Below are positions 906 through 56,797 of a stretch of 57,002 nt of DNA, piece after piece. The notes under the pieces were generated by a model. It saw only the letters and a list, made by a program, of their open reading frames with translations. It searched no databases and was not told the origin of the DNA. The stretch is from a virus (lineage: Duplodnaviria; Caudoviricetes): positions 1-57,002 of the IMG/VR virus record IMGVR_UViG_3300020045_013711; one strand, 5' to 3'. Positions within the stretch are counted from its first letter, which is position 1. The number at the start of each line of letters is the position of its first letter. The translations under genes were made by a program, and so were the position numbers.

Positions 906-912
906 AGGTTAG

Positions 913-1133: not shown

Positions 1134-1885
1134 GGTTTAAAAATTACAATCATACTGTCTTTTGTTCCGCTTTGAGTTTTTCCTTTAGAATTTAATGGTA
1201 AATAAAAATTACCATTAGCATCTATTTTACCAAACTTTATTCTACCTTTTACAAATTCAATCTCACTTGCATTTGGTTTGATCCATTCGTGAAATAATTT
1301 TGTGCTTGTTGATACAGGTATAAGAAAAACAGAAACTCTGCAAGCTACAATTTCATACTTTTTAGGCATTAATTCTGATTTCAGATACAATGGATGTTTT
1401 GGCGTTCCATCGTTCGACAAATCAATATAATGTAGGTTTTCAATTCCTTTTAACGGCTTGTAGTTTTCTCCAAATTTTTTACCCAATTTATTTACAATAG
1501 GAGCATTTCCCCAAGCACAAACTATCATCTCAGATTCTTTCGCCATAAAATCAATATGCCATTTATTTAACAAACCCATTGGTTCTTTAGTATTCAATAA
1601 TTCTTTTGGATTTGTAGAACGATAGGCGAATAAGTTTCCAACACATAAAGAACCAAAACCCCAATTCTTTGCAAATCCAATACATCGTCTAATTGTAGCA
1701 TCATCTATATTTGCATCAGCAGTTGATGGGTTTAGCATTAAGAACATAACTCTTGGTTTTGTTTCATCCCATTTTCTTTCAAGAGAATAACGGTATTTTT
1801 CACAATCCGAAAGAACAGCACTACGGCTAACAGCCATTTGGAGCGATTGGGAATTTGTGTTTTCTGAATTATTATTTTGTGTCAT
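1130..1885 (-). CDS. DUF1643-family protein fused to the C-terminal fragment of a phage adenine MTase
   Basis: YRYSLERKWD, MLNPSTAD, VGNLFAYRST, CAWGN and PKHPLY motifs; tail LIPVSTSTKLFHE...KDSMIVIF closely resembles ORF 10655..11086; likely start MTQ at 1885. Confidence 0.7.
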   Translation of the reverse strand: MTQNNNSENTNSQSLQMAVSRSAVLSDCEKYRYSLERKWDETKPRVMFLMLNPSTADANIDDATIRRCIGFAKNWGFGSLCVGNLFAYRSTNPKELLNTKEPMGLLNKWHIDFMAKESEMIVCAWGNAPIVNKLGKKFGENYKPLKGIENLHYIDLSNDGTPKHPLYLKSELMPKKYEIVACRVSVFLIPVSTSTKLFHEWIKPNASEIEFVKGRIKFGKIDANGNFYLPLNSKGKTQSGTKDSMIVIFKP

Positions 1886-1955
1886 AATGATGGTTTTTAT
1901 AGTTAATGATTTCGATTTTTTAGCCCCAACCACACCAAGTGGCAAAACGTTATAG
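1825..1955 (+). repeat. attC-like site A
   Basis: GGCTAAC; arms gccatttggagcgattggg / cccaaccacaccaagtggc; GTTATAG at 1949. Confidence 0.85.
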
Positions 1956-1961
1956 GCAAGC

Positions 1962-1995
1962 AAAAAGCCAATCATTACGGATAAAGATTGGCTTT
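1962..1995 (-). terminator. intrinsic terminator inside cassette
   Basis: aaagccaatc / gattggcttt stem with minus-strand U-tract, downstream of 2018..2203. Confidence 0.6.
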
Positions 1996-2017
1996 GAAAT
2001 TTTGGAAATTAGATGTT

Positions 2018-2203
2018 TTATTCTTTTTGTTTCTTCCAAACAAAAATCATTGATTTTGCCCAGCTTGGCAACTCTTTATTTGGTTGTGTCATTGATTTAA
2101 CAGAATCGACTGTTAAACCTACGATTTTAGCAATATCAGCATTGTTTAAATTAAACTCTTTTTTGAGTTCTTTAAAATCTAAATGTGTTGGAATTTTATC
2201 CAT
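2018..2203 (-). CDS. small HTH protein (cassette cargo)
   Basis: LNNADIAKIVGLTVDSVKSM helix-turn-helix pattern. Confidence 0.65.
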   Translation of the reverse strand: MDKIPTHLDFKELKKEFNLNNADIAKIVGLTVDSVKSMTQPNKELPSWAKSMIFVWKKQKE

Positions 2204-2204
2204 C

Positions 2205-2771
2205 TTATTTAATTCTTACTATTATTAAATCGAAGTCATTTTCTGTTTTTGTTAAAAATTCTTTATTTTTGGTTTTCTTTAAAACAACTAAAACGCTTCT
2301 CAAATAAACTATTTCATTTTTAGCTTTAAGATTTAAATTCAAAACCTTTCCTATTTCTAAATCTTCAATTAATTTTTCTTCTTTACCATATTTTTTTGAA
2401 GATTGACGACCTTCTAATTTTTTTTCGTCTATTTTTTTTACTCTTGCTAAACGAACTAATTCTCTTTTTAACTTTAGTCTATCTGTCTTGATTTCTAATG
2501 AAATATCTTTGATTGATTTTAATCCTAAATTTTGATTAATAAAATCAAAATTATCTATAACATTTTTAGATATTGGTCTAAAATCCAATCTAATATCTAA
2601 ATAAAGGAGAATTTTAATTAATCTATCTGATTTTATATTTAACTCTCCGTTTTCTATTTTTGATAAATTAGAGTGATCTTCCTCTAATAAATCCGCTAAT
2701 TCTCTTAGAGATAACATATAATTTTCTCTTGCTTTTTTTATTACTTTTCCAAAAAAGTTTAAATTTTCCAT
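2205..2771 (-). CDS. XRE/Cro-C1 family HTH regulator (cassette cargo)
   Basis: FGKVIKKARENYMLSLRELADLLEEDHSNLSKIENG. Confidence 0.8.
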   Translation of the reverse strand: MENLNFFGKVIKKARENYMLSLRELADLLEEDHSNLSKIENGELNIKSDRLIKILLYLDIRLDFRPISKNVIDNFDFINQNLGLKSIKDISLEIKTDRLKLKRELVRLARVKKIDEKKLEGRQSSKKYGKEEKLIEDLEIGKVLNLNLKAKNEIVYLRSVLVVLKKTKNKEFLTKTENDFDLIIVRIK

Positions 2772-2773
2772 TT

Positions 2774-3169
2774 TTATTTTACTATTTCGTTAATCTCATC
2801 TTCTAAAATCATTTCCTCAAAACAAAGTTTTTTTATCTGACTTGTTTTAACGTCAACTTGTCCAAATAAAATAACCAACCAAGTATGTCCGCAATCAATT
2901 CTAACACCGTCATTTTGATAAAAAACTGATTCTTTAGAAATACCTTCGTCTTCTAGTAATTCGAAAATTTCAGATAATCCTAAATCAAAATCACAAATAG
3001 TCATATAAGGCGTTAAATCAAAAAGACTAACACTTAAATCAAAAGTGTATAATTCATCACCAGTATTAACATAAGATTCCGCAGTTTCATCGCAAGGAGA
3101 ATAAAAACTACCACAGTTCATATATTCTAATCCTTTTTGCGCGCCTCTGTAAAATTTTTCAGTTCTCAT
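2774..3169 (-). CDS. hypothetical acidic protein (cassette cargo)
   Basis: 131 aa ORF, first gene of a 3-gene cassette. Confidence 0.65.
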   Translation of the reverse strand: MRTEKFYRGAQKGLEYMNCGSFYSPCDETAESYVNTGDELYTFDLSVSLFDLTPYMTICDFDLGLSEIFELLEDEGISKESVFYQNDGVRIDCGHTWLVILFGQVDVKTSQIKKLCFEEMILEDEINEIVK

Positions 3170-3202
3170 AATTTCTATTATGTTTAGATTTCTATACCGT
3201 AA

Positions 3203-3255
3203 AAGTAAACTATATTTTACTTACTACCAAATAATAAGTAAACTATTTTTTACTT
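3203..3255. promoter_or_regulatory. tandem palindromic operators AAGTAAA-N6-TTTACTT
   Basis: two copies, 3203-3222 and 3236-3255, upstream of the 3-gene HTH cassette operon. Confidence 0.65.
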
Positions 3256-3348
3256 ATTTTTATTTCCCTTTATTTTACAAGGTTTTTAGAGTAAAAATAA
3301 TTTTATCTAATTTCCAAAATTTCAAAGAACGTGGTGCAAATTGCCTGC

Positions 3349-3438
3349 CCATAACCTATGCTACTGGCAATTTGCAGAACTCCCTACTATTATTCACGTT
3401 ATGTGGTGGCAAACTGCCAGTAGCATCTGCCGTTATCG
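3349..3438 (+). repeat. attC-like site B (short class)
   Basis: TGCCCATAAC pairs with opener GTTATAGGCA (1949, one mismatch); arms atgctactggcaatttgc / gcaaactgccagtagcat; GTT at 3432. Confidence 0.9.
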
Positions 3439-3798
3439 TTCAGCTTGGTTGGAGTCGTTAACAAAATCGGTATAAAAAGAATCTATATTTCTTTTAATTT
3501 TGTTCATTAATCCTCTTAATATTCGCCCTTTACTAAACTTATCGTGTTCTCTCATTTTTGTATTTGGAAAGTGTACTGTAAAATGAAAATGTGAACCTTT
3601 TTCATCATCCCATCCTGAAAGAGAAGAACCTATATTGTTTTTATCTTTATGACCATAAGTTAAAAAAGCCTCTTCTATCTCTTCTAATGCTTTTACATCA
3701 ACTCCTAATCCTTCCCAAGTGTCATAAGGATATATTGATGTTGCGTGGTTTTCTTTAAAAAACTCAACTGCTTCGGGTTTTAATCTGTAGTTTTTCAT
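3433..3798 (-). CDS. hypothetical protein (cassette cargo)
   Basis: likely start MKNYRLK at 3798; TAA stop lies in the GTTA box. Confidence 0.7.
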   Translation of the reverse strand: MKNYRLKPEAVEFFKENHATSIYPYDTWEGLGVDVKALEEIEEAFLTYGHKDKNNIGSSLSGWDDEKGSHFHFTVHFPNTKMREHDKFSKGRILRGLMNKIKRNIDSFYTDFVNDSNQAER

Positions 3799-3825
3799 TT
3801 TGTTTGTGGTTAAAAAAAGCCGAAA

Positions 3826-3963
3826 CGATAACAATTTCTTTGCGATGATTTTCGGCTTGGTTTATAAATTTTTTTATTGTTTTGTGTCTGTTTTGCTTGG
3901 GTCTTAATCCGAAGCTTGGTTTTGTGCAACTCCGAAAAACCTCGCAAAGAATCAACGTTATAA
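3826..3963 (+). repeat. attC-like site C
   Basis: AACGATAAC pairs with GTTATCGTT (3432); arms ttctttgcgatgattttcgg / ccgaaaaacctcgcaaagaa; GTT at 3957. Confidence 0.9.
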
Positions 3964-3976
3964 GCAATTGTAACAA

Positions 3977-4204
3977 CTACTCGGTTAAATGAAGTGAACA
4001 TAATCTAAAATGATGTATTTTATCAAATCGAATTTTATTTTCATCTTTTAATAAATGATTGTAATAATCTTTGTTGTAAAATTTACAGGTTTCTTTTTTC
4101 GAGCAAATTTCAACTCCTTTTTTAAAATTATAATACTGTCCAGAACAACTGCTTATAACATCGTGTATAATAGATTGCTTGTTTGGGTCTGTGTTTTCAG
4201 GCAT
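3977..4204 (-). CDS. Cys-containing hypothetical protein (cassette cargo)
   Basis: 75 aa; start codon inside attC D loop. Confidence 0.6.
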   Translation of the reverse strand: MPENTDPNKQSIIHDVISSCSGQYYNFKKGVEICSKKETCKFYNKDYYNHLLKDENKIRFDKIHHFRLCSLHLTE

Positions 4205-4286
4205 CTGTTTTTAATTTAATGATTGGTAATTTTTGGAGGTATCAGGTTTAATCGGCGCAACCTCTTATACACGCCGTCCGTTACTA
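4153..4286 (+). repeat. attC-like site D
   Basis: TGCTTATAAC pairs with GTTATAAGCA (3957); arms cgtgtataatagattgc / gcaacctcttatacacg; GTT at 4280. Confidence 0.9.
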
Positions 4287-4697
4287 GCTATGTTGCTTAC
4301 TAAGTTCGTTTAGTGCTGAAATCATATTTTCAAAAGCCTTGTCGAACTCCTTTTCAGATATTTCTTTTTGCAAAGAATGAACATATCCGTAATCTATTTT
4401 TTGTGTAGAAACGTTTCCATCTTTATCAGTTTGAAACGAATATCCTTTATAATGACACGCAACACCATTCCCGCCTGTATCATATAAATCCTCAGGCTTT
4501 ATTTCAGTTATTTTCGTGTATAACCACCAATAATCAGATGGTTTCTCAGGACAACTGTAGTTATTTCTGTTTTTAAAACATTTCCCTTCTAATTTTTTAA
4601 ATTCAGGATAATGCTTTTCGATTAATTCTTGATTTTCTTTTTCGGAAATTAGCTTCAATTGTTTTTTAAGCTCTTCTTTTGATAATAAATTTTCCAT
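4284..4697 (-). CDS. hypothetical protein (cassette cargo)
   Basis: likely start MENLLSK at 4697. Confidence 0.7.
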   Translation of the reverse strand: MENLLSKEELKKQLKLISEKENQELIEKHYPEFKKLEGKCFKNRNNYSCPEKPSDYWWLYTKITEIKPEDLYDTGGNGVACHYKGYSFQTDKDGNVSTQKIDYGYVHSLQKEISEKEFDKAFENMISALNELSKQHS

Positions 4698-4721
4698 ATT
4701 GTTTGGTGTTAAAAACACAGC

Positions 4722-4855
4722 TAGTAACACATAATTGTAGCAATAGCTGTATGGTTTTTGCATTTAATGTTTTGCGTTTTCTTGTTTTTATCAGTTTTTA
4801 ACCGAATGATAATTTTGTGTCAGCACGCTACTGCTACAATTATCCAACGTTACCT
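4722..4855 (+). repeat. attC-like site E
   Basis: AGCTAGTAAC pairs with GTTACTAGCT (4280); arms ataattgtagcaatagc / gctactgctacaattat; GTT at 4849. Confidence 0.9.
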
Positions 4856-4876
4856 GCAAGTGCTATATTCGTGCTT

Positions 4877-5584
4877 TTAAGAACTTTTTGCACCTGTGTA
4901 AGTAAATAATTTTTCAATTGCTTTTTTACTTCCTGTATCTTGTGTTAATGAGCTTACAATTTCTTTACTCCAGATACATTTAAAGTCATTTGGCGCATTA
5001 TATTCACTAACAAACACAATGTGACCTTCGTTTGATTTATCTCTGCACCATTGCCAGAAATCAGCGTGATTAAACCCGTCTTTATAAGATGTTGTTCCTT
5101 CGTATGGTGGGTCGCAATAAATCAGGCTATTATCAGGAATTTGTAATTTATCGTAACTTTCATTTACAAATCTAATTCCTTTTAAACTTTCGCTTTGGTT
5201 CAATGCGTTTTTGTAGGCTTCATTTACATAATCACGTTTATTTAATCCGTCGCGACACCAGCCTCCAAGCCATTTACCGCTATAAGAAAATGCAAATCCT
5301 GCATAACCTTTGTATTTATAATCATCACTTTTTCGTAATGATTTATAATCCTCTTCAGTAAACTCACGATTATTTTTTGGTAAGTCACAAATACAATCTC
5401 TTATCGCAATTAAGGCATCAATTAGATAATTATTAATATCTGCTCCAATTCTTTTACCTTGTACTTTATCAATTAAATTTGCGCCTCCTACAAATGGTTC
5501 GACCCAAGTTCTTTGCTCTCTTTCTTTTAACATTATCGGCAGTATTTCTTTTGCTATTCGATTTTTTGAACCCATATATTTCAT
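4877..5584 (-). CDS. DNA adenine methyltransferase, Dam/D12-like (cassette cargo)
   Basis: KYMGSK, EPFVGGAN (motif I), IYCDPPY (motif IV). Confidence 0.9.
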   Translation of the reverse strand: MKYMGSKNRIAKEILPIMLKEREQRTWVEPFVGGANLIDKVQGKRIGADINNYLIDALIAIRDCICDLPKNNREFTEEDYKSLRKSDDYKYKGYAGFAFSYSGKWLGGWCRDGLNKRDYVNEAYKNALNQSESLKGIRFVNESYDKLQIPDNSLIYCDPPYEGTTSYKDGFNHADFWQWCRDKSNEGHIVFVSEYNAPNDFKCIWSKEIVSSLTQDTGSKKAIEKLFTYTGAKSS

Positions 5585-5616
5585 AAGATATTTTGTTTTA
5601 AACAAGCCACACCAGC

Positions 5617-5748
5617 AGGTAACAAGTGCTTGAAGAAATGGCTTTATTTGTTTTTAATTTAAAGATTAGTTTTTGTCTGTGATGTCTGTTTTTAATTAGA
5701 TGATTTGGCGTACTTGCACGCCACTTCGTCAAGCACCATACGTTATGG
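5617..5748 (+). repeat. attC-like site F
   Basis: GCAGGTAAC pairs with GTTACCTGC (4849); arms gtgcttgaagaaatggc / gccacttcgtcaagcac; GTT at 5742. Confidence 0.9.
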
Positions 5749-5749
5749 G

Positions 5750-6172
5750 CTATGCAGTTGGAACGGCATAGCTTTGTTTTATATATTTCATCAATAAATT
5801 TTGATTGCTAGAAATCCTTGGATTATAATCAAATCTGATAAAATCAACCAAATTCACTTCTTCGGAAATAGAAATAAAATCTTCTAATGAAATTGTTTTT
5901 ACAAAATCGGCTTTATCCATTCTTAAAGAATAAGTACCGTCTTCTTTGTATTTTTTTATTCTACATTCAATATCAATTACAGTTTGAATTTTATTATTGA
6001 AATGTCCGCTTTGAAGTTCCCAAAAACAGCAGTCGATATCAATCCCAAATTTATCTTCAAAAACTGCAAATGAATCAACACTTAATTTTTGATTTTCAGG
6101 TAATTCAATAGCTAAAAATTGTTCTAATTTTTCTTTTGAAACTTTCTTTACTTTGATGTCTTGTATTTTCAT
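5750..6172 (-). CDS. hypothetical protein (cassette cargo)
   Basis: 140 aa ORF filling the cassette. Confidence 0.7.
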   Translation of the reverse strand: MKIQDIKVKKVSKEKLEQFLAIELPENQKLSVDSFAVFEDKFGIDIDCCFWELQSGHFNNKIQTVIDIECRIKKYKEDGTYSLRMDKADFVKTISLEDFISISEEVNLVDFIRFDYNPRISSNQNLLMKYIKQSYAVPTA

Positions 6173-6205
6173 TTTTGATAATTTTAGTTACCGAAAAAGC
6201 ACAGC

Positions 6206-6340
6206 CCATAACAAGTGATATGAGCGATTTTCGGCATCGTGATTATTGATTTATTGTTTTGTACTTGGTTTGTTCTGTGACAGCGGAAGGATTACGGCTT
6301 ACTACTCCGAAAATCCGCACATATCACTGAACCGTTATCA
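6206..6340 (+). repeat. attC-like site G
   Basis: AGCCCATAAC pairs with GTTATGGGCT (5742); arms agtgatatgagcgattttcgg / ccgaaaatccgcacatatcact (one bulged C); GTT at 6334. Confidence 0.9.
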
Positions 6341-6341
6341 C

Positions 6342-6554
6342 TCATTTTATAGAACGTTTGCTGATAACGAGTTCAGATTTCCGAATGATGCAAATTTCAT
6401 TCTCAAAAGGCGTTTCAAAATTCCATCTATCAAGCGTATATTTTGAGATTCCGATTTCGTGAGTATTGCATAATATTGTTAAATCCCCGTAATAAAAATG
6501 CTTTTCGTTTTCGAGTGCATTTTTAAATTCAATGTGAAATAGTTTTTTATTCAT
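6342..6554 (-). CDS. hypothetical protein (cassette cargo)
   Basis: 70 aa ORF. Confidence 0.6.
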   Translation of the reverse strand: MNKKLFHIEFKNALENEKHFYYGDLTILCNTHEIGISKYTLDRWNFETPFENEICIIRKSELVISKRSIK

Positions 6555-6670
6555 TTTTTTTTATTTTAATAAAAGAAAGGTTTTCGCCTATATTTACTTT
6601 TATATGTTTTTCAATAAAAGGTTTACAATTCTGAACTTCAACTAATTTGTTGCTTTTCCTTTCTTTAAAT

Positions 6671-6883
6671 TTAAACTTTTATTTTGCTAAGTTCTTTTTT
6701 TACTCTGTCACGATATATTTTAAAAAACTCTATGTTGTTATCTATAAAATCTTTAGACTCTGTTCTTTTATCTGATTCCCAATAATCAACTGCGTTTTCA
6801 GTATAAGGAAGTATATTTCTTAATCTATACTCCCCTAATTCTTCATAAATACTTGGTATTTCAGGCTGTTTAAATTTTGACAT
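6671..6883 (-). CDS. hypothetical protein (cassette cargo)
   Basis: 70 aa ORF, coupled to upstream stop. Confidence 0.6.
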   Translation of the reverse strand: MSKFKQPEIPSIYEELGEYRLRNILPYTENAVDYWESDKRTESKDFIDNNIEFFKIYRDRVKKELSKIKV

Positions 6884-7155
6884 TATTTTTTGAAGTTTTT
6901 AAATTCTTCTTCTGTCATTTTTTCAAGTCTTGATTTCAATTCATTTTGATTTTCAATTCCTGATCCAAATCCTTCTATAAATAAACATTTGAACGCTTCT
7001 AATTTTTTGCTTTTGCTTAATTTAGAATATCTCACAAATCCTAAAGAATAGGTTTTTTCAATTTTAGCATTTTCTTCTTTAGTTCCGAAAATCTCAGTCA
7101 ATCCATTTACAATTGCTTCTGCTCCGTTTCTGTCTGTGTAGTAAGTAGTTTTCAT
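6883..7155 (-). CDS. hypothetical protein (cassette cargo)
   Basis: likely start MKTTYYT at 7155. Confidence 0.65.
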   Translation of the reverse strand: MKTTYYTDRNGAEAIVNGLTEIFGTKEENAKIEKTYSLGFVRYSKLSKSKKLEAFKCLFIEGFGSGIENQNELKSRLEKMTEEEFKNFKK

Positions 7156-7177
7156 AATTTCTATTTGTTTGATTTTG

Positions 7178-7209
7178 TTATACAAATATAGTGATTAATA
7201 TTTGTATAA
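7178..7209 (-). promoter_or_regulatory. cassette-internal Bacteroidota -7 promoter (TATATTTG) inside a 12-bp inverted repeat
   Basis: ttatacaaatat-N8-atatttgtataa; caaatata at 7183-7190 is TAnnTTTG on the minus strand. Confidence 0.6.
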
Positions 7210-7265
7210 ACCTAATTAAATTACAAAAATAAATGTTAAAATTTGTAAATGAATAAAAAAACGAG

Positions 7266-7362
7266 TGATAACACGTGCTATGAGCAATATTGCCTATAAC
7301 GTTTAGTGCTACACGACAACTTTTTTCTAAGGCAATACTGCACATAGCACTATCCGTTATCA
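7266..7362 (+). repeat. attC-like site H (short class)
   Basis: GAGTGATAAC pairs with GTTATCACTC (6334); arms gtgctatgagcaatattgcct / aggcaatactgcacatagcac; GTT at 7356. Confidence 0.9.
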
Positions 7363-7368
7363 GGAATA

Positions 7369-7572
7369 CTACGATTGTGGTTTTAAAGATGATTTTAATA
7401 CCATATCATATTCTTCCGGCATTTGAACTAATGGTGTTTGTTTTGAGAACATCGCAAGTATATTTTGTAACAACTCGTTTTGTTCTTTTGAAATACCTAA
7501 TTGTATTATTCTATCTCCTTTTTTCATAATAAGAGCAATATTTCCTTCTTTTTGTTCTTCAAATGTTGCCAT
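7369..7572 (-). CDS. hypothetical protein (cassette cargo)
   Basis: 67 aa ORF filling the cassette. Confidence 0.65.
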   Translation of the reverse strand: MATFEEQKEGNIALIMKKGDRIIQLGISKEQNELLQNILAMFSKQTPLVQMPEEYDMVLKSSLKPQS

Positions 7573-7602
7573 AACATATTTAGTTTTAAATTTCCGTACT
7601 CC

Positions 7603-7738
7603 TGATAACAGTTGCTATAAGAGATTTTCGGTATTGTTTATTAATCGTTTTATTTGTGTGTATTTGCGGTGATTTGGCAAAGCGGAAAGATGGTTTTATA
7701 TTCATCCGAAAATCCTCACATAGCACCAACCGTTAGTA
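7603..7738 (+). repeat. attC-like site I
   Basis: TCCTGATAAC pairs with GTTATCAGGA (7356); arms tgctataagagattttcgg / ccgaaaatcctcacatagca; GTT at 7732. Confidence 0.9.
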
Positions 7739-7744
7739 GCCATT

Positions 7745-8179
7745 TTAATAGCCATCTGCTCTAAATTCAAATTTTTCAAGTTCATTGTATTTATCCCAAA
7801 CCGCTTCAAGTTCTATTTGGAAAACTTCTACAATTTCAATTCTTCTTCTTTCAAAGATTGGTTTGAGTTGTAAAAATGCTTTTGGATAAAGTTGTTCAAA
7901 GTCTCCATACCACATTGCTCCACAAGTCAAATCTTTATTATCAACCATATCAATATATTTTTCATCAAACCATTCATAACCATAGGATTCTTTACTTAAT
8001 TTAGGTTTTGATTTAAAAAAGACGATACAATTATAATGACCTCCGTATATTCCTGCCCAAACTTTTCTAATAGATAATTTTGGAGGTTGAAATTCTGCTT
8101 TCACCACAAAACGGCTACTAACAGCCATTTGGCAAGATTGGGTATCAGGCTTGTCTGAATTATTGTCTTGTGTTTTCAT
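7745..8179 (-). CDS. hypothetical protein (cassette cargo)
   Basis: 144 aa; start inside attC J loop. Confidence 0.7.
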   Translation of the reverse strand: MKTQDNNSDKPDTQSCQMAVSSRFVVKAEFQPPKLSIRKVWAGIYGGHYNCIVFFKSKPKLSKESYGYEWFDEKYIDMVDNKDLTCGAMWYGDFEQLYPKAFLQLKPIFERRRIEIVEVFQIELEAVWDKYNELEKFEFRADGY

Positions 8180-8248
8180 TGTTTAGTTTTTAAGTTAATG
8201 TTTAGGATTTATTTACCCCAAACTACCACAAGTTGCAGGACGTTATGC
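8116..8248 (+). repeat. attC-like site J
   Basis: GGCTACTAAC pairs with GTTAGTAGCC (7732); sequence related to site A; GTT at 8242. Confidence 0.85.
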
Positions 8249-8270
8249 AGGATTGCTACATTTTCGTTTC

Positions 8271-8558
8271 TTAACAAAAATTAGCAATATTGCTAGTAAT
8301 TATATAATGTGATTTACAAGGAAAATTATAATTGCCTACAGAACCAATTAAAGATATTTTTTTACCATCAGAACTCTTCACAATTTCCCAGTTTCTTCCA
8401 CCGCCCAAGGGCGTTATTGTTTTTAATCCACAACCGCATAAGCAATTATGAGTTGCTGTTTTATATTTTTCGGATATGTATAATTTATTTTCCTCAATTA
8501 CTTCTGGAATGACATCGACAAATACAGGTTCAATTGTTACTTTTTTAATCGTTTTCAT
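8271..8558 (-). CDS. Cys/His-rich protein, DUF6527-like (cassette cargo)
   Basis: LYIS..Y.TATHNCLCGCG...SVGNYNFPCKSHY. Confidence 0.7.
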   Translation of the reverse strand: MKTIKKVTIEPVFVDVIPEVIEENKLYISEKYKTATHNCLCGCGLKTITPLGGGRNWEIVKSSDGKKISLIGSVGNYNFPCKSHYIITSNIANFC

Positions 8559-8590
8559 AATAAAATTTAGTTTTAATCATCCACAACCCC

Positions 8591-8724
8591 GCATAACAGT
8601 AGTCTTGAGCTAGTGGCAGTTGGTTTTGTATCCGAAAAGACTCGGATAGTATTAATTATTGTTTTATTTTTGTTGGCACTTATCTTGAATCGAGCCACCA
8701 GCACAAGGCTACAAAACGTTATCA
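8591..8724 (+). repeat. attC-like site K
   Basis: CCCGCATAAC pairs with GTTATGCAGG (8242, one mismatch); arms gtagtcttgagctagtggc / gccaccagcacaaggctac; GTT at 8718. Confidence 0.9.
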
Positions 8725-9084
8725 CTCAGCTTGTGAGCAACTTTGTGTTGAAAGAATTTTAATGGCATTTATTAGTCCATATTCTAAAGCATCTTCATAT
8801 TTTGAAAACAATTCTCCATAACCGTAATTACAATATTTTTCATCATCAACATTATTGATGGAAGTGGTAACACACACATCATATATTACTGGATGATTAT
8901 TTTGACTACTAAATTGATGTGATATTAATACATCTGTATTTTTTTGTTCTCGCAACCATTTTTGTAAAACAGATTGTGTTGGTTTTACTTCATAACATAT
9001 ACATTCAGTAAATCCTCCACAATTACAAGTTTTTAAATCAAAACCTATATTTTTTGCTAATTGAAATGTTTTATCAGAAATCAT
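8722..9084 (-). CDS. hypothetical phage protein (cassette cargo)
   Basis: 120 aa; PTQSVLQKWLRE...YEDALEYGL. Confidence 0.7.
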   Translation of the reverse strand: MISDKTFQLAKNIGFDLKTCNCGGFTECICYEVKPTQSVLQKWLREQKNTDVLISHQFSSQNNHPVIYDVCVTTSINNVDDEKYCNYGYGELFSKYEDALEYGLINAIKILSTQSCSQAE

Positions 9085-9108
9085 AATTTTGCGTTTAAAA
9101 AGCCGAAG

Positions 9109-9241
9109 TGATAACAGCTAGTATATTTCAGCTTGGCATCAGGCTTGATTAATAATTGATTTTGTGTCAGATTTATGGTTTCCCAACCGAAAGATTTGGC
9201 TTACTTGTCCCAGCCGAAATTATACTAGCGAACCGTTAACC
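9109..9241 (+). repeat. attC-like site L
   Basis: AGTGATAAC pairs with GTTATCACT (8718); arms gctagtatatttcagct / agccgaaattatactagc (one bulged T); GTT at 9235. Confidence 0.9.
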
Positions 9242-9607
9242 GTAATTCTCGTAACTATAGTCAATAAAAAGCTCTTCTTCTAAATCAATTTTAAATTGAA
9301 AACCATATCCCCAATGATTATCTCCGTTTTCATTAGCATTATTTCCACTTTCTGAAAATTCTACCCATAAATGACCTTCTGATAACCAGTTTGATAAAGT
9401 TAAATCATCAATTGTATCGCTTGTATCTGTTTGAAGTTCTTTAAAATCATAATTTAACGCTGTATATAATTCCTTTGCAAAATTATATTCTTCATCATTT
9501 TCTTTTAGATATTCTTCATAACTTTCTTGTGTCGGAAATTCTTTTAAATGATTAAGTTTTACTTTATTAAATATCTCTCTGTAATCTATAAAATCAACTA
9601 ATTGCAT
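9236..9607 (-). CDS. hypothetical acidic protein (cassette cargo)
   Basis: 123 aa; TAA stop lies in the GTTA box. Confidence 0.7.
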   Translation of the reverse strand: MQLVDFIDYREIFNKVKLNHLKEFPTQESYEEYLKENDEEYNFAKELYTALNYDFKELQTDTSDTIDDLTLSNWLSEGHLWVEFSESGNNANENGDNHWGYGFQFKIDLEEELFIDYSYENYG

Positions 9608-9617
9608 AATGAACTAC

Positions 9618-9751
9618 GGTTAACAGCTACTACAAAACATTTGGGTAACTGTGATTAATTAAAAAATAGTTTGTACCTGTTTTAATTCGTGAGTACTCGA
9701 ATATTTTAGCTTCCTTAATCCCAAACGATTTGTAGTAGCAAAACGTTACCA
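9618..9751 (+). repeat. attC-like site M
   Basis: TACGGTTAAC pairs with GTTAACCGTA (9235); arms gctactacaaaacatttggg / cccaaacgatttgtagtagc; GTT at 9745. Confidence 0.9.
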
Positions 9752-9757
9752 GTAATG

Positions 9758-9985
9758 CTACCCTCGCATACGGTTAACTCGAATTTGTAAATTTTCACGC
9801 TCTTCAAATAATTCACAAAGCCGTTTATTAAAATCATTATGACTACTTCCTTCTTTGGCTGTAACGTTTAATTCTTGCAATCCATTTAGTTTAATAGTTT
9901 CTCCTTTTTGAAGTCTATAAAGCATATCAATTGAACCGTTTATGATGTCAATTTTATTTTTCATATTTATTAAAAGTCTATTCAT
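9758..9985 (-). CDS. hypothetical protein (cassette cargo)
   Basis: 75 aa ORF filling the cassette. Confidence 0.65.
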   Translation of the reverse strand: MNRLLINMKNKIDIINGSIDMLYRLQKGETIKLNGLQELNVTAKEGSSHNDFNKRLCELFEERENLQIRVNRMRG

Positions 9986-10020
9986 TTTGATAAATTTAGC
10001 ATCCGAAAAAAAAGCACTAC

Positions 10021-10156
10021 TGGTAACAAGTGATATGAGCGATTTTCGGCATTGTGATTATTGATTTATTTTTTTGTACTTGGTAATATTATTTTGTGGC
10101 TGAAATATTGGCGATTCCTACTCCGAAAATCCGCACATATCACTGAACCGTTACCT
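10021..10156 (+). repeat. attC-like site N
   Basis: TACTGGTAAC pairs with GTTACCAGTA (9745); arms identical to site G; GTT at 10150. Confidence 0.9.
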
Positions 10157-10162
10157 GCTATG

Positions 10163-10576
10163 CTACCAATGAACTTCAAAGGGCATTTGTTCTATAATCT
10201 GTTTTCCAATTGGAATTGATAGGATTATATTTTTAAAGTCTTTAAAATCAATTTTTTCTTTTGTCCAAAAAACAGATTTTGTTCCACTTCTATTGTCTTT
10301 ACAACTCCCAGAAATTCCACAAATATAATATCCATCAATTTCTAAATAAGTTATTAATCCTTTGCCTGTATATGGTGGTACAATATCTTCTGGACTAAAC
10401 GGCAAATCTCTAAACCAAACTTTACTTTTCAAAAGCCTTTCTTTTTGCAAAATCCAAAAATAATGCCCTGCACTCGTTAAGTCTGTTCCAAAGTAATCAA
10501 GCACAGCAGGTAACAGCGGTTTTGTGCTATTGCCTAATTCGTCTTGAACCTTATTATTGTTTTGTTCTTCAATCAT
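10163..10576 (-). CDS. hypothetical protein (cassette cargo)
   Basis: likely start MIEEQNN at 10576, inside attC O loop. Confidence 0.7.
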   Translation of the reverse strand: MIEEQNNNKVQDELGNSTKPLLPAVLDYFGTDLTSAGHYFWILQKERLLKSKVWFRDLPFSPEDIVPPYTGKGLITYLEIDGYYICGISGSCKDNRSGTKSVFWTKEKIDFKDFKNIILSIPIGKQIIEQMPFEVHW

Positions 10577-10641
10577 TTGTCTTAAATTTAAAGTTTTAGG
10601 TGTGTTTTTAGGCAACATCACAAAGCCACGAACCGTTAGGG
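10508..10641 (+). repeat. attC-like site O
   Basis: AGCAGGTAAC pairs with GTTACCTGCT (10150); arms gcggttttgtgctattgccta / taggcaacatcacaaagccac; GTT at 10635. Confidence 0.9.
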
Positions 10642-10654
10642 CAAATAGCTCTAT

Positions 10655-11086
10655 TTAGTTTTTCAGAACAACTATCATACTATCGTGCATCCCGCTTTGT
10701 TTTGGTGTATAGATGTTTCCGTTTTCGTCAAAAGTTCCAAATCTTAATCTACCTTTTACGAATCGAATATCTTTTGCGTTTGGCAAGATCTTTTCGTGAA
10801 ATAATTTTGTTGAAGTACTTACCGGAATAAGCAAAACACATACATTCCCTTTTTTGCTTTCTTCAATTGCTCTATCAACAAAAGCTTCTTTTAATTTTCG
10901 GGAATAAGGAGGATTAATAAAATTAGATTTCCCCCATTTTATCAACAATCCATCTTTATCACTTGTAATTTTTTCTTTGTTCAGCGGGCAAGGGTCAAAA
11001 TCAAAATTAAATTCAGCATTCAATTCATCATAAAATTCTTTTGGAGTAGCCCAATTGTCTGAGTGATCTAAATTTCTATTTTTCAT
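10655..11086 (-). CDS. phage DNA N6-adenine methyltransferase (cassette cargo)
   Basis: DNWATP, FDFDPCP, FINPPYS motifs of the short phage Dam family. Confidence 0.85.
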   Translation of the reverse strand: MKNRNLDHSDNWATPKEFYDELNAEFNFDFDPCPLNKEKITSDKDGLLIKWGKSNFINPPYSRKLKEAFVDRAIEESKKGNVCVLLIPVSTSTKLFHEKILPNAKDIRFVKGRLRFGTFDENGNIYTPKQSGMHDSMIVVLKN

Positions 11087-11289
11087 AATTTATTAAATAT
11101 TCGTCTAACAAAATATCCTCTTACAATGCTTGTAATAAAAAACACAGCGGTAATAATTAGATTTTGAGAAAATGTTACAGGAATATTTAATAATGGATAA
11201 ATAATAGCCTGTATTAATATTGAAGTCAGTAACCCGATTATCGTTTGAGATACGCTTTCTATTATTGAATGTTTTTTGGTTTGTTTCAT
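11083..11289 (-). CDS. small membrane protein (cassette cargo)
   Basis: MKQTKKHSIIES, two hydrophobic helices, RGYFVRRIFN. Confidence 0.7.
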   Translation of the reverse strand: MKQTKKHSIIESVSQTIIGLLTSILIQAIIYPLLNIPVTFSQNLIITAVFFITSIVRGYFVRRIFNKL

Positions 11290-11320
11290 AACAACTTTTT
11301 CGTTAAAAATTCACTACTTG

Positions 11321-11411
11321 CCCTAACATATGCTACAAGCTATATGCACGGCTTTAGTTTTTCAGTTCATATTTATTGCTGGCATACAGCTTGTAGCATC
11401 CGCCGTTATCG
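11321..11411 (+). repeat. attC-like site P (short class, last in array)
   Basis: TTGCCCTAAC pairs with GTTAGGGCAA (10635); arms atgctacaagctatatgc / gcatacagcttgtagcat; GTT at 11405. Confidence 0.9.
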
Positions 11412-11510
11412 CCAATACTACAATCTTTTTCTATTAATAATCAATACTCCAATCAATAGAATTACAGATATTAATACCCCTAAGTCATTTATTACATTTT
11501 GTATCATAAT

Positions 11511-53127: not shown

Positions 53128-53928
53128 TTATACTGGTAAATTTAGTTTAGATAAAGAAGCTGTTGAAACATGACAATAAATTTCAGTAGTTTTTACATTG
53201 GCATGACCTAGGTGCTGTTGAATGTATCTAAGATCAGTTCCAGCTTCTAATAAAGCCGTTGCGTTTGAATGTCTAAGAATATGCATATGATATTCTTTTC
53301 CAATATATTTCTTTACTAATTGGTTACAGCTAGTTTCGCTATATTGATTTGAAAACTGTCCATTAAATAAATATTCTTTTGGTTGGTATTCAGTAAAATA
53401 AATCCTAAGAAGTTCCAAAACTTTTTGACTTAACGGAACAATTCTGTCTTTATTGCCTTTTGAATTTCTAATAAAAATTATCATGCGTTTGCTGTCAATA
53501 TCAGCTATCAAAAGATTAATTACCTCAGATACTCTCATTCCTGTTGAATAAGTCATTGTGAGCAACGCTTTATGTTTGGTATTGGTTATTTTATCCAATT
53601 GCGATAATAGAAACTCCTTCTCAATTATTTTAGGTAACTTTTTTTCCGACCTAGGATATTTTATATATTTAAACTTCATAGGTTGCTTTACAACCATTTC
53701 ATAAAATAATTTCAAAGCCGAAATACTATGAGCCATTGAGTTCCTTGTCTTGAATTGTAATAACCAATTTTTTATAGCTGTTTCATTTATTTTTGAAGGC
53801 TCAGTAAATTGTTCTTGGTTTCGTAAAAATAAATCTACTTGTGCTGAATAGTTTTTAATAGTATTCTCAGCATAATTTTTTAGAGTTAACTCTTTCCGAT
53901 ACAATTCAAGGTACTTAGGAATATTCAT
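53128..53928 (-). CDS. tyrosine recombinase, candidate cassette integrase (no IntI-specific insertion)
   Basis: N-terminal NYAENTIKNY SAM-like domain; YSTGMRVSE, KGNKDR, HILRHS, LGH, TTEIY catalytic residues intact. Confidence 0.92.
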   Translation of the reverse strand: MNIPKYLELYRKELTLKNYAENTIKNYSAQVDLFLRNQEQFTEPSKINETAIKNWLLQFKTRNSMAHSISALKLFYEMVVKQPMKFKYIKYPRSEKKLPKIIEKEFLLSQLDKITNTKHKALLTMTYSTGMRVSEVINLLIADIDSKRMIIFIRNSKGNKDRIVPLSQKVLELLRIYFTEYQPKEYLFNGQFSNQYSETSCNQLVKKYIGKEYHMHILRHSNATALLEAGTDLRYIQQHLGHANVKTTEIYCHVSTASLSKLNLPV

Positions 53929-53929
53929 G

Positions 53930-53990
53930 GTATTAAGTATTAAGTTTATTGATGTTCACACATTTTTAGCACATATAGTAGTTATAGGCA
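53930..53990 (+). other. attI-like primary recombination site (G/TT at 53981)
   Basis: GTTATAGGCA opens cassette 1 but has no attC palindrome upstream; 53 bp from the integrase ATG; gtattaa-gtattaa direct repeat at 53930. Confidence 0.75.
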
Positions 53991-53999: not shown

Positions 54000-54704
54000 T
54001 TACCATAACGTGAGTTGATTTTTATAATCGACAAATCTTTTTTCTTGATTTTCAAAATATGTAGGATCAAGTTCTGAAGCAGTAAAATCTAATTTTGCTT
54101 TATCAGCCGATATTCTACTACTTCCTGATCCTAAATGTGTATCAAGTATTTTATCGCCTTCTTTTGCAAAGTTTTTAAATATCCAGTCATATAGCTTTAC
54201 AGGTTTTTGCGTTGGGTGTATTCTTTTTTCTTTGTCTTTCATATCGTGTTGTATCATTCCGTGCCAGGCAATTTTAACCGATTTAATGCTGTTTAATAAA
54301 GAACAGTAAGCAAGTTCGCCATCGCTATAAGTTGGCATTGTGACACATTTGTCCCAATAAATTCTGCCTCCAGATAAAAAGTCAAATGGGTAATAATTTA
54401 AACCCCAAATTATTTGTTGTTTAGATACTCTAAATAATTCATCAAAATATTCTTTGGTCGGTACATCGGCATCCCATTTTTGCTCTCCGTATTTTTTTGA
54501 TTTGGAAGCGCTTTTTTTACTTTGTTTTTTATCTGTACTATTTTTAACGTCAGCATTAATTCCGTAAGGCGGGTCAACTACTGCTAAATCAAAATAGTTA
54601 TCGGGGTATTGCTTCATTAATGCCACACAATCCATTAAATAAACCGTACTGCCTATAACAGTGGTTTGAAGCAAGTGGGCATCGGTCTTTAATTCATTAT
54701 TCAT
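54000..54704 (-). CDS. DNA N6/N4 amino-methyltransferase, beta class (first cassette)
   Basis: DLAVVDPPYG, IHPTQKPVKLY, ILDTHLGSGS. Confidence 0.9.
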   Translation of the reverse strand: MNNELKTDAHLLQTTVIGSTVYLMDCVALMKQYPDNYFDLAVVDPPYGINADVKNSTDKKQSKKSASKSKKYGEQKWDADVPTKEYFDELFRVSKQQIIWGLNYYPFDFLSGGRIYWDKCVTMPTYSDGELAYCSLLNSIKSVKIAWHGMIQHDMKDKEKRIHPTQKPVKLYDWIFKNFAKEGDKILDTHLGSGSSRISADKAKLDFTASELDPTYFENQEKRFVDYKNQLTLW

Positions 54705-54784
54705 TTTGTACTTGGATTAATAGTTTATAATTTAATGTTTGGGGCTTATTTCCCCCACCTGCGTCAAGCCACGAAACGTTATAA
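54653..54784 (+). repeat. attC-like site 1
   Basis: TGCCTATAAC pairs with GTTATAGGCA (53981); arms gtggtttgaagcaagtggg / cccacctgcgtcaagccac; GTT at 54778. Confidence 0.9.
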
Positions 54785-54788
54785 CTCA

Positions 54789-55070: not shown

Positions 55071-55082
55071 AAAAATAACGAG

Positions 55083-55214
55083 TTATAACAATGCATTGTA
55101 GCTATTATTGCATTGTTTTTTGATTTATAATTCAGTTTGTATTTGTTATAATTTGTGTTTAATCGAAGCATTGTTTTGTCCTTTCAATAACAGCGACAAT
55201 GCTCAACGTTAGCC
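55083..55214 (+). repeat. attC-like site 2
   Basis: GAGTTATAAC pairs with GTTATAACTC (54778); arms gcattgtagctattattg / caataacagcgacaatgc; GTT at 55208. Confidence 0.9.
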
Positions 55215-55219
55215 GTCAG

Positions 55220-55988: not shown

Positions 55989-56071
55989 GGTCTGTATTTT
56001 TTAGTATTTGTTATTAGGTAAATATGGTTTTGTGTTTTTTCAAGCCGAAAAACAAGCGACAAACGTTATGA
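55937..56071 (+). repeat. attC-like site 3
   Basis: ACGGCTAAC pairs with GTTAGCCGT (55208); arms cgcttgcttttcagctt / aagccgaaaaacaagcg; GTT at 56065. Confidence 0.9.
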
Positions 56072-56088
56072 GTAAGCTATTTAGCAAC

Positions 56089-56331: not shown

Positions 56332-56355
56332 AATTATTGTGGATATCTAGCCTAC

Positions 56356-56487: not shown

Positions 56488-56500
56488 ATAACCGCCTATG

Positions 56501-56764: not shown

Positions 56765-56797
56765 AATTTAAAATTTGATTAATAATTCGTGGTATAT

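What the first reader, a model, noticed from the sequence alone, without database searches (positions are those of the whole stretch)
1825..11411. Every cassette is bracketed by its own matching end pair, fixing the crossover at the GTT box
Seen: in all 20 complete cassettes the 9-10 nt starting at the opening GTT are the reverse complement of the R'' box closing the same cassette, not of the R'' in the adjacent hairpin. Examples: GTTACTAGCT/AGCTAGTAAC, GTTATGGGCT/AGCCCATAAC, GTTAACCGTA/TACGGTTAAC, GTTAGGGCAA/TTGCCCTAAC; only two pairs have one mismatch. Imperfect pairing often extends to 13-15 nt. Established: this is the footprint of a circular cassette opened at G/TT. Inference: each unit arrived as a circle, and the lack of decay implies recent activity or selection.
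Basis: partly seen in the sequence, partly recalled or inferred. Interest (0 to 1): 0.85.

Follow-up and report, generated by a model that had tools for sequence, protein, structure and literature searches.

The report
Phage gene cassettes with matching ends
Each small gene unit in this phage's integron-like array starts and ends with a matching pair of short sequences, as expected if each unit was inserted as a DNA circle, and related phages show that the cut lies in the GTTA box.

Summary
The window is a complete 57-kb IMG/VR phage record. It holds 21 AAC...GTT hairpin sites: 16 at 1822-11407 and 5 at 54650-56885. In all 20 complete cassettes, the box that opens the cassette is the reverse complement of the box that closes it. 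The match is perfect for 10 nt in 14 cassettes and for 9 nt in 4; two cassettes have one mismatch. Non-cognate pairs match for 4.5 nt on average, and 0 of 100,000 permutations reached the observed total.

Complementarity alone cannot tell whether the crossover is in the GTT box or the AAC box, because both models predict the same pairing. Four independent lines place it in the + strand GTTA:
- Homology boundaries of shared cassettes in relatives.
- A conserved attI-like junction about 55 nt upstream of a 266-aa Xer-type recombinase gene.
- The structure of the array ends.
- ORFs that start inside their own hairpin.

Sites joined in silico fold 6-8 kcal/mol better than the sites as they sit in the array. 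The minus strand folds better in 20 of 20.

The rule holds across 80 related loci. Circles were not observed. The footprint itself is textbook for integrons. The platform is a new variant: a recombinase that is not IntI, 14-bp stems and inverted ORFs. This scan had already noted the platform on the same DNA.

The parts
53128..53928 (-). Tyrosine recombinase gene, 266 aa, Xer-type, without the IntI insertion. It is the presumed cassette recombinase.
   Evidence: Pfam Phage_integrase plus SAM-like N-terminal domain. NCBIfam best match is XerA_Arch at 184.8 bits (cut-off 220). TIGR02249 integron integrase scores 147.4 bits (cut-off 265) in two stretches. Best solved structure is the XerC-like protein 4a8e.
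53971..53990 (+). attI-like junction: conserved ACATATAGTA followed by GTTA and the variable stretch of the first cassette (opener GTTATAGGCA at 53981-53990).
   Evidence: The same motif lies at the same distance from the recombinase start in 37 related loci.
54650..54787 (+). Site Ha: closer box 54650-54659, hairpin, GTT 54778-54780, plus the opener of the next cassette.
55080..55217 (+). Site Hb: closer 55080-55089, GTT 55208-55210, plus next opener.
55934..56074 (+). Site Hc: closer 55934-55943, GTT 56065-56067, plus next opener.
56353..56490 (+). Site Hd: closer 56353-56362, GTT 56481-56483, plus next opener.
56795..56892 (+). Site He (short class): closer 56795-56804, GTT 56883-56885. The opener that follows has no partner in the record.
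1822..1958 (+). Site H1: closer 1822-1831 (no partner in the record), GTT 1949-1951, plus the opener of cassette H1->H2.
3346..3441 (+). Site H2 (short class): closer 3346-3355, GTT 3432-3434, plus next opener.
3823..3966 (+). Site H3: closer 3823-3832, GTT 3957-3959, plus next opener.
4150..4289 (+). Site H4: closer 4150-4159, GTT 4280-4282, plus next opener.
4719..4858 (+). Site H5: closer 4719-4728, GTT 4849-4851, plus next opener.
5614..5751 (+). Site H6: closer 5614-5623, GTT 5742-5744, plus next opener.
6203..6343 (+). Site H7: closer 6203-6212, GTT 6334-6336, plus next opener.
   Evidence: The left homology boundary with L024 and L048 falls here.
7263..7365 (+). Site H8 (short class): closer 7263-7272, GTT 7356-7358, plus next opener.
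   Evidence: The right homology boundary with L024 and L048 falls here.
7600..7741 (+). Site H9: closer 7600-7609, GTT 7732-7734, plus next opener.
8113..8251 (+). Site H10: closer 8113-8122, GTT 8242-8244, plus next opener.
8588..8727 (+). Site H11: closer 8588-8597, GTT 8718-8720, plus next opener.
   Evidence: The homologue in L036 has a variable stretch changed on both ends.
9106..9244 (+). Site H12: closer 9106-9115, GTT 9235-9237, plus next opener.
9615..9754 (+). Site H13: closer 9615-9624, GTT 9745-9747, plus next opener.
10018..10159 (+). Site H14: closer 10018-10027, GTT 10150-10152, plus next opener.
10505..10644 (+). Site H15: closer 10505-10514, GTT 10635-10637, plus next opener.
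11318..11420 (+). Site H16 (short class, last of the array): closer 11318-11327, GTT 11405-11407. The flank GTTATCGCCAATAC that follows has no partner.

Best explanation
The stretch is most of an integron-like cassette array in a Flavobacterium-type phage genome.

Anatomy. On the + strand each cassette runs from the TT of one GTTA box to the G of the next. It has four parts in order:
- The opener: TTA, 6 cassette-specific bases, A, then TGC/TAC.
- One or a few genes, all on the minus strand.
- The closer: GCA/GTA, C, the complement of the 6 specific bases, then TAAC.
- An imperfect hairpin of 82-130 nt.

Opener and closer are the two halves of one stem of about 14 bp. In the array the gene separates them. 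They become neighbours only when the cassette ends are joined.

Inferred mechanism. The neighbouring 266-aa Xer-type tyrosine recombinase exchanges strands within the invariant GTTA/TAAC. The partners are the folded site of a free cassette and the attI-like site (ACATATAGTA|GTTA), which lies 55 nt upstream of the recombinase gene. New cassettes therefore enter next to the recombinase gene. The folded strand is most likely the minus strand, which is the gene-sense strand. That strand carries the crossover TAAC on its 5' arm, like the bottom strand of a canonical attC.

What is shown: the complementarity, the cassette boundaries, the attI-like junction, and conservation across the family.

What is inferred: the circular intermediate, which enzyme acts, single-strand folding, and the exact phosphodiester that is cut.
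For: - Cognate complementarity holds in 20 of 20 cassettes and in 0 of 100,000 permutations.
- Joined sites fold 6.0 (+) and 8.2 (-) kcal/mol better than sites in the array. Only 3 of 380 (+) and 2 of 380 (-) chimeric joins fold as well.
- The homologous cassette in L024 and L048 is bounded exactly by GTTA on both sides and carries hairpin H8 with it. In L048 it is the first cassette, next to the attI-like motif. L061 and L067 show the same right-hand boundary.
- At 80% identity or more, 8 HSP rows (5 hairpins, 2 cassette families) show the hairpin travelling with the gene on its + left. None show the opposite.
- A cognate first opener was found in 52 of 64 loci that have hairpins. In 37 of them it lies 54-106 nt from the recombinase start, after a conserved motif.
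- Family-wide, there are 305 hairpins upstream of the recombinase in 64 of 80 loci. Of 241 consecutive pairs, 147 are perfect for 9-10 nt, against 26 of 1659 non-consecutive pairs and 4 of 305 same-hairpin pairs.
- Variable stretches are changed on both ends in homologous cassettes.
- The minus strand is more stable in 20 of 20 sites.
- Non-Watson-Crick positions are T.G wobbles on the minus strand. In the window at positions 5-10 the count is 5 against 0 for the + strand. In the family at positions 8-10 it is 24 against 5. Position 11 is A/C in 108 of 114.
- Four cassettes need a start codon inside their own hairpin, and no stop codon lies left of G|TT.
- The recombinase is Xer-type.
Against: - No circular form, excision product or empty site was observed. 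The public runs gave only short contigs.
- Only two cassette families give clean boundary evidence at 80% identity or more.
- Among 24 more distant homologous gene regions, linkage to the hairpin on the + right is weak. Mean hairpin identity is 0.65 against 0.61. Right exceeds left in 13 of 24. One pair (L007|15 vs L041|1) has the left hairpin more alike, 0.76 against 0.52.
- In 367 of 387 cases a hairpin shared between loci has no flanking homology. So hairpins and genes also reassort, or diverge, by some route the simple model does not describe.
- 94 of 241 consecutive pairs in relatives lack a run of 9 nt or more. Their wider spacing (median 865 against 312 nt) suggests missed hairpins, but I did not check this case by case.
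- The recombinase lacks the segment IntI uses to read folded attC. It could instead be the phage's own lysogeny integrase.
- The T.G bias would also fit RNA pairing, because the minus strand is the mRNA sense strand.
Confidence: 0.78

Rival explanations
1. Same system but opposite polarity. The crossover is in the + strand AAC box (GTT on the minus strand), so each gene is followed by its own attC, as in canonical integrons.
For: All genes are on the minus strand. Their stop codons lie in or just beside the box that would then be the inverse core, as in many canonical cassettes. The complementarity is predicted equally by this model.
Against: - Shared cassettes carry the hairpin on their + right and not the one on their + left.
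- This polarity would leave an orphan box without a hairpin at 53981, and H16 would have no partner.
- Four genes would be cut from their only ATG.
- The conserved attI-like motif abuts the GTTA side.
Confidence: 0.04
2. The matching ends are kept mainly for RNA. In the polycistronic minus-sense transcript, each gene would be bracketed by a stem of about 14 nt, for example for RNase III-type processing or translational control. DNA mobility would be secondary.
For: The non-Watson-Crick positions are G.U-compatible on the transcript-sense strand. That strand folds better in 20 of 20 sites. All genes are co-oriented.
Against: - This model does not explain why cassettes recur in other arrays and other positions with boundaries exactly at GTTA.
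- It does not explain the conserved junction beside a recombinase gene.
- Stems spanning 200-1400 nt would have to compete with local hairpins.
- No RNA data were available.
Confidence: 0.08
3. No site-specific circles are involved. Genes are shuffled by homologous recombination between the conserved hairpins of co-infecting phages (as proposed for promoter stem-loops of T4-type phages, recalled from memory), or each unit is a small transposon with terminal inverted repeats.
For: Hairpins are shared between loci without flanking homology in 367 of 387 cases. Hairpins H7 and H14 are 85-91% alike but sit next to unrelated genes.
Against: - Homologous exchange inside hairpins gives no reason for opener and closer to be complementary, or to change together.
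- The boundaries fall at GTTA, outside the hairpin arms.
- The unit that moves includes one hairpin and not two.
- No transposase was seen among the 20 larger ORFs scanned.
Confidence: 0.07

Closest known systems
Integrons (IntI integrase, attI, attC cassette arrays)
   Same: - An array of small cassettes separated by imperfect hairpins that end in AAC...GTT.
- A cassette runs from the first T of one GTT box to the G of the next, and its own site is seen only in the circular form. This is the definition given in PMC2674596 (passages of section 5).
- The insertion site lies beside the recombinase gene.
- The crossover triplet lies on the 5' arm of the better-folding strand, as for the attC bottom strand (PMC5027507, Introduction).
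   Different: - The recombinase has 266 aa, is Xer-type and is below the integron-integrase cut-off.
- The stem is 10 perfect bp, a wobble, then 3 more bp, with 6 free bases, rather than the 7-bp RYYYAAC/GTTRRRY. In the array only about 4-5 bp remain.
- The unpaired spacer is 3-5 nt on one arm and 0-2 on the other, and there are no regular extrahelical bases.
- All genes are antisense to the attC top strand and point towards the recombinase gene.
- The host is a phage.
attC clusters without an integrase (CALINs) in phage genomes, Qi et al. 2023 (PMC9892861; abstract and section 3.4 read)
   Same: These are attC-type sites and cassettes in phage genomes, including a Polaribacter phage, with DNA methyltransferases among the cargo. 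Here too methyltransferase domains occur in or next to the array.
   Different: Those were found with IntegronFinder/HattCI, have at least two sites each, and were tested with bacterial IntI1. No phage-encoded Xer-type recombinase with its own attI-like site was described in the parts I read, and no array of about 20 cassettes. I could not see that paper's supplementary tables, so I cannot exclude that a relative of this phage is listed there.
Xer-dependent elements: CTX-type phages that use a folded single strand, and dif-like modules on Acinetobacter plasmids
   Same: Xer-family recombinases can act on folded single-stranded DNA. PMC5027507 (Introduction) names XerC/XerD as the only other tyrosine recombinases known to do so. 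Gene modules flanked by Xer sites are also known (PMC7399989, abstract in the listing).
   Different: Those use host XerC/D and 28-bp dif-like sites. They have no 82-130-nt hairpins, no cassette-specific complementary ends and no array beside a dedicated recombinase.

Membership tests
Integron | Integron integrase (IntI) with the extra segment (I2 helix) in the catalytic domain | tested here: not met
   TIGR02249 scores 147.4 bits against a cut-off of 265 and matches in two stretches (8-208 to profile 3-205 of 315). PRK15417 scores 86 bits against 435. The best family is XerA_Arch at 184.8 bits against 220. The protein has only 266 aa.
Integron | Cassettes separated by imperfect-hairpin sites bounded by AAC...GTT | tested here: met
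   There are 21 sites of 82-130 nt with 16-24 arm pairs, against 11 or fewer for other candidates. TAACA and CGTTA are invariant in the 17 long sites.
Integron | The outer boxes of a cassette's own site are complementary when the cassette is circular, and the cassette boundary lies in the GTT box | tested here: met
   for complementarity and folding. for boundaries in relatives. Resolution is limited to the 4 invariant bases GTTA.
Integron | attI insertion site next to the integrase gene | tested here: met
   A conserved motif ends at GTTA 54-106 nt from the recombinase start in the window and in 37 loci. Cassette-specific sequence follows.
Integron | Extrahelical bases near L'' and an unpaired spacer of 5-6 nt on each arm (PMC5027507) | tested here: not met
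   Minus-strand folds show 3-5 unpaired nt on the 5' arm and 0-2 on the 3' arm. Bulges in the inner stem are irregular.
Integron | Promoterless genes in the sense of the attC top strand, read away from attI | tested here: not met
   All ORFs in the array are on the minus strand, antisense to the top strand as fixed by the crossover box, and they point towards the recombinase gene.
Integron | Recombination of a folded single (bottom) strand through a circular cassette | not testable with these tools
   There are only indirect signs. The minus strand folds better in 20 of 20 sites and there is a wobble bias. Public runs were available as short contigs only.
CALIN (attC cluster lacking an integron integrase) | Two or more attC sites called by the IntegronFinder covariance model with no IntI nearby | not tested
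   IntegronFinder/HattCI are not available here. Rfam gave only a tRNA hit in the window.

The most novel reading that the evidence does not exclude
This would be an independently evolved (or ancestral) integron mechanism carried by phages. A Xer-type recombinase without the IntI I2 helix would recognise a long 14-bp stem with a fixed T.G wobble, instead of extrahelical bases. Integration splits that stem, leaving only about 4 bp in the array, and the full stem is restored only in the excised cassette. The site design itself would then bias the reaction towards capture and lock integrated cassettes in place.
Probability: 0.3. Interest if true: 0.85.

Novelty: new variant of a known kind. Interest (0 to 1): 0.62.

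Why it matters
The matching end pairs are the strongest sequence-only evidence that this array was built by site-specific recombination of discrete cassettes, and not by ordinary phage mosaicism. Together with the boundaries seen in relatives, they define the cassette unit, its polarity and the insertion site. That gives exact substrates for a recombination assay.

If a Xer-type enzyme without the IntI-specific helix does handle folded hairpin sites, it bears on how integron integrases arose. PMC7790495 (abstract only, listing) treats acquisition of that helix as the step that opened single-strand recombination.

It would also show that phages own a cassette-capture platform. Some of the cargo seen here and next to the array carries DNA methyltransferase domains, which may serve against host restriction.

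Tried and rejected
- Rfam at gathering thresholds gave only a tRNA at 52121-52191.
- RNAalifold on a MAFFT alignment of 17 long hairpins predicted no pairs, because the arms were not aligned in register. I folded each site on its own instead, and built no covariance model.
- A first hairpin detector based on whole-site MFE found only 17 of 21 sites. I replaced it with an arms-only fold.
- Megablast of window 11400-20000 against GenBank phages gave one weak terminase hit.
- Polaribacter Freya phages have a 33%-identical integrase and genome lengths from 43,978 to 48,920 bp. Reading Freya_10 1-4200 by eye showed no AAC...GTT hairpin array, so I dropped this lead.
- Public runs: 20 runs from 9 studies, mostly labelled wastewater metagenomes, hold 7-15% of the sampled words of 1800-11500. 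I laid four of them, X1, X2, X3 and X5. They are Logan contigs of about 100-1100 nt. These cover many cassettes piecemeal and show many 'skips' in which conserved flanks of neighbouring sites are joined with unknown sequence between. With sides of 18-32 nt these are not reliable joints. No circle junction, excision product or empty site can be read from them, and I draw no conclusion on habitat or abundance.
- The first count of hairpin-plus-flank HSPs gave 2 rows for the opposite polarity. Both came from a coordinate error in my script, which produced 'hairpins' of 24 and 10 nt. They vanished when each hairpin was taken as one candidate.
- No partner was found in the window for the closer of H1 or the openers after He and H16. 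A 10-nt near-match at 55208 is the cognate opener of Hc.
- I searched the held papers for a description of this system and found none. The searches were (terms such as integron, attC, phage genome, integron-like, tyrosine recombinase, attC-like, Xer, phage-encoded integron).

Full report
**What the window is.** The window is a whole IMG/VR virus record of 57,002 bp, classed as linear and estimated 100% complete by CheckV. All sizeable ORFs are on the minus strand. The phage genes include:
- Small terminase (14805-15449), large terminase (13326-14801) and SPP1-type portal (11875-13308).
- RecT, tape measure and major capsid protein.
- A 266-aa tyrosine recombinase at 53128-53928.

A tRNA gene lies at 52121-52191. 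The nearest bacterial homologues of the recombinase (69-72% identity) are in Flavobacterium contigs.

**The observation.** Reading the sequence and an arms-only folding detector give 21 hairpin sites bounded by AAC...GTT. The detector scored 16-24 arm pairs for all 21 and 11 or fewer for the other 28 candidates. Sixteen sites lie at 1822-11407. Five lie at 54650-56885, behind a GTTA box at 53981 that sits 53 nt upstream of the recombinase start.

In one search the box opening a cassette is the reverse complement of the box closing the same cassette. The match is perfect for 10 nt in 14 cassettes, 9 nt in 4, 7 nt in 1 and 5 nt in 1. The last two have one mismatch each within the first 10 nt. 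The mean run is 9.4 nt. It is 4.5 nt for 380 non-cognate pairings and 4.6 nt for the 21 pairs within one hairpin. None of 100,000 permutations reached the observed sum. Positions 12-14 pair in 17-19 of 20 cassettes, while position 11 is A opposite C in 16 of 20.

| Site form | + strand (kcal/mol) | - strand (kcal/mol) |
|---|---|---|
| As in the array | -14.2 | -15.8 |
| Joined at G/TT | -20.2 | -24.1 |

Chimeras with another cassette's opener fold as well or better in only 3 of 380 (+) and 2 of 380 (-) cases. The minus strand is the more stable one in 20 of 20 sites.

On that strand the joined site has a stem of about 15 bp that ends in TAAC on its 5' arm. Then come 3-5 unpaired bases on that arm, against 0-2 on the other. 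An inner stem of about 20 bp and a large loop follow.

**Does this fix the crossover?** Not by itself. If the exchange were in the AAC box instead, the two boxes flanking a gene would still come from one site. Both polarities therefore predict. Four independent lines decide the question.

1. Shared cassettes. I fetched 80 IMG/VR loci that encode relatives of the recombinase.
   - The cassette at window 6334-7358 recurs in L024 and L048 at 90-94% identity. Homology begins exactly at GTTA and ends at GTTA(T) after hairpin H8, and the hairpin before it in L024 is unrelated.
   - L061 and L067 share another cassette whose homology ends at CGTTATA.
   - At 80% identity or more, 8 HSP rows (5 hairpins, 2 cassette families) show the hairpin travelling with the gene on its + left, 12 rows are syntenic on both sides, and none show the reverse.
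2. The attI-like junction.
   - In L048 the same cassette is first in the array, directly after TTTTTACATATAGGA. The window has TTTTAGCACATATAGTA at the same place.
   - In 52 of 64 loci with hairpins, a box cognate to the first closer exists between the recombinase start and the first hairpin. In 37 of them it lies 54-106 nt from the start codon, behind an ACATATAGTA or ATATATAATA motif, and cassette-specific sequence follows it.
   - The base before GTTA is A at this junction and C at all hairpins. The bases after GTTA pair with the cassette's own closer. So the exchange lies within GTTA.
3. Array ends. With this polarity every cassette in the record is complete. The reverse polarity would leave a box without a hairpin at 53981 and give H16 no partner.
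4. Gene integrity. In four cassettes (Hb->Hc, H3->H4, H9->H10, H14->H15) the only plausible ATG lies inside the hairpin on the + right. No stop codon lies left of G|TT. In two cassettes the stop codon is the TTA of GTTA itself.

**Evidence against, or weaker.**
- Only two cassette families give clean boundaries.
- Among 24 homologous inter-hairpin regions found by tblastx, two are the duplicate loci L081/L082. Of the rest, the + right hairpin is at least 70% alike in 5 and the + left one in 1 (L007|15 vs L041|1). The means are 0.65 against 0.61, and the background 95th percentile is 0.67. For older homologues neither hairpin is kept.
- In 367 of 387 cases a hairpin shared between loci has no flanking homology. 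Hairpins H7 and H14 are 85-91% alike next to unrelated genes. Hairpins and genes therefore also reassort, or diverge at very different rates.

**Which strand folds.** Every non-Watson-Crick position in the stem that is a transition-type mismatch is a T.G wobble on the minus strand.

| Positions | T.G on minus | G.T on plus | Other |
|---|---|---|---|
| Window, 5-10 | 5 | 0 | 1 |
| Family, 8-10 | 24 | 5 | 31 |

Position 11 is A/C in 108 of 114 family pairs with a 10-nt run. Together, this points to the minus strand as the folded one. It carries the crossover TAAC on its 5' arm, as the bottom strand of attC carries its AAC in R' (PMC5027507, Introduction). Because the minus strand is also the gene-sense strand, RNA pairing could produce the same bias, so I keep that as a rival.

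**Family-wide check.**
- The detector finds 305 hairpins in 490 kb upstream of the recombinase in 64 of 80 loci, against 63 candidates in 653 kb downstream. Of the 16 loci without a hairpin, 14 have less than 1.3 kb of upstream sequence.
- Of 241 consecutive hairpin pairs, 147 have a perfect run of 9-10 nt and none has more than 10. The figures are 26 of 1659 for non-consecutive pairs and 4 of 305 within one hairpin.
- The rule holds at recombinase identities of 60-88% (64 of 91 pairs), 50-60% (51 of 91) and 46-50% (32 of 59).
- Pairs with low runs are spaced wider (median 865 against 312 nt). This suggests missed hairpins, but I did not check it.
- Bacterial contigs with recombinases at least 47% identical (Flavobacterium, Bacteroidales, Chitinophagaceae) keep the motif and hairpins. 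Those at 45% or less do not.

**Selection or youth.**
- The homologue in L036 of the window's H10->H11 cassette (72% identity) has opener TGTGAG and a perfectly matching closer. The window has TGCAGG / TGCGGG. Two positions are changed on both ends.
- L031_3 and L059_1 (67% identity) have entirely different variable stretches, and each is self-complementary.
- Pairing is therefore maintained while sequence drifts. This means selection, or correction in the folded form, and not only recent insertion.
- Only 3 homologous pairs occur among 167 well-bounded cassettes, so the pool is very large.

**The enzyme.**
- Its best NCBIfam match is XerA_Arch at 184.8 bits (cut-off 220), followed by XerD and XerC at about 163 bits.
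- The integron-integrase model scores 147.4 bits (cut-off 265), in two stretches that skip part of the profile.
- The best solved relative is the XerC-like protein 4a8e. IntI4 (2a3v) matches in two pieces.
- It is therefore not an IntI by the curated tests. Its role at these sites is inferred from its fixed position beside the attI-like junction.

**Comparison with what is known.**
- The footprint itself is textbook. In integrons a cassette is defined from the first T of one R' to the G of the next, and its own attC is the sequence as seen in the circular form (PMC2674596, passages of section 5). That paper's reference list names Hall, Brookes and Stokes 1991 for the crossover point; I did not read that paper.
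- attC clusters in phages have been reported and tested with IntI1 (PMC9892861, abstract and section 3.4).
- I found no paper describing a phage array beside a Xer-type recombinase.
- An earlier follow-up in this scan described the platform on this same DNA (e1-6239760). My results were obtained independently and agree with it.

**Verdict.** The crossover is localised to GTTA. Circles and the acting enzyme remain unproven. The finding is a known kind of footprint in a new variant of the integron design.

Noticed in passing
window 1-1828 and 56886-57002: The closer of H1 (1818-1831) and the opener after He (56883-) have no partners, and no hairpins lie between them. The linear record probably breaks inside the array, or this stretch is a decayed multi-gene unit.
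   Followed up: partly
window 929-1130; L041 9153-9354: A small minus-strand gene here is 87% identical to a gene that in L041 is a regular cassette with opener, closer and hairpin. In the window it has none of these. It looks like a cassette gene that lost its ends, or one fixed without them.
   Followed up: partly
window 1130-1975 and 10655-11086: There are two paralogous DUF1643 genes (70% identical over 141 nt). The first also has a C-terminal Dam-like methyltransferase piece. A further N6_N4 methyltransferase sits in the first cassette (54000-54704).
   Followed up: partly
loops of the 17 long hairpins, e.g. window 6255-6265: A T-rich motif (TTTTGT-like, two invariant T columns in alignment A1) is conserved in the otherwise variable loops. 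Its function is unknown.
   Followed up: no
openers, positions 11-18, e.g. window 53991-53998, 7366-7373, 11415-11422: After the 6 variable bases, many openers share AATACTAC or TATGCTAC, in the window and in relatives (L007, L036, L049, L071, L078, L093). The site consensus therefore reaches beyond the paired stem on one side only.
   Followed up: partly
window 3433-3435 and 9236-9238: In two cassettes the gene's stop codon is the TTA of the GTTA box itself (TAA on the minus strand).
   Followed up: yes
L088 (Flavobacterium urumqiense CGMCC 1.9230 contig) 5500-6001: A cultured strain carries a 69%-identical recombinase with the attI-like motif and one hairpin. The closer of that hairpin matches the opener at 9 of 10 positions. 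This is a possible experimental system.
   Followed up: partly
GenBank Polaribacter phages Freya_1 to Freya_10 (L085, L086): Near-identical isolates differ in length by up to 4.9 kb, and the integrase gene (33% identical to the one here) shifts in position accordingly. No AAC...GTT hairpins were seen by eye upstream of it in Freya_10.
   Followed up: partly
L048 8930-9000 (locus coordinates): In L048 the cassette after the H8-like hairpin opens with the same 20 nt as the first cassette and then diverges. This may be a partial tandem duplication, or reuse of one opener.
   Followed up: no
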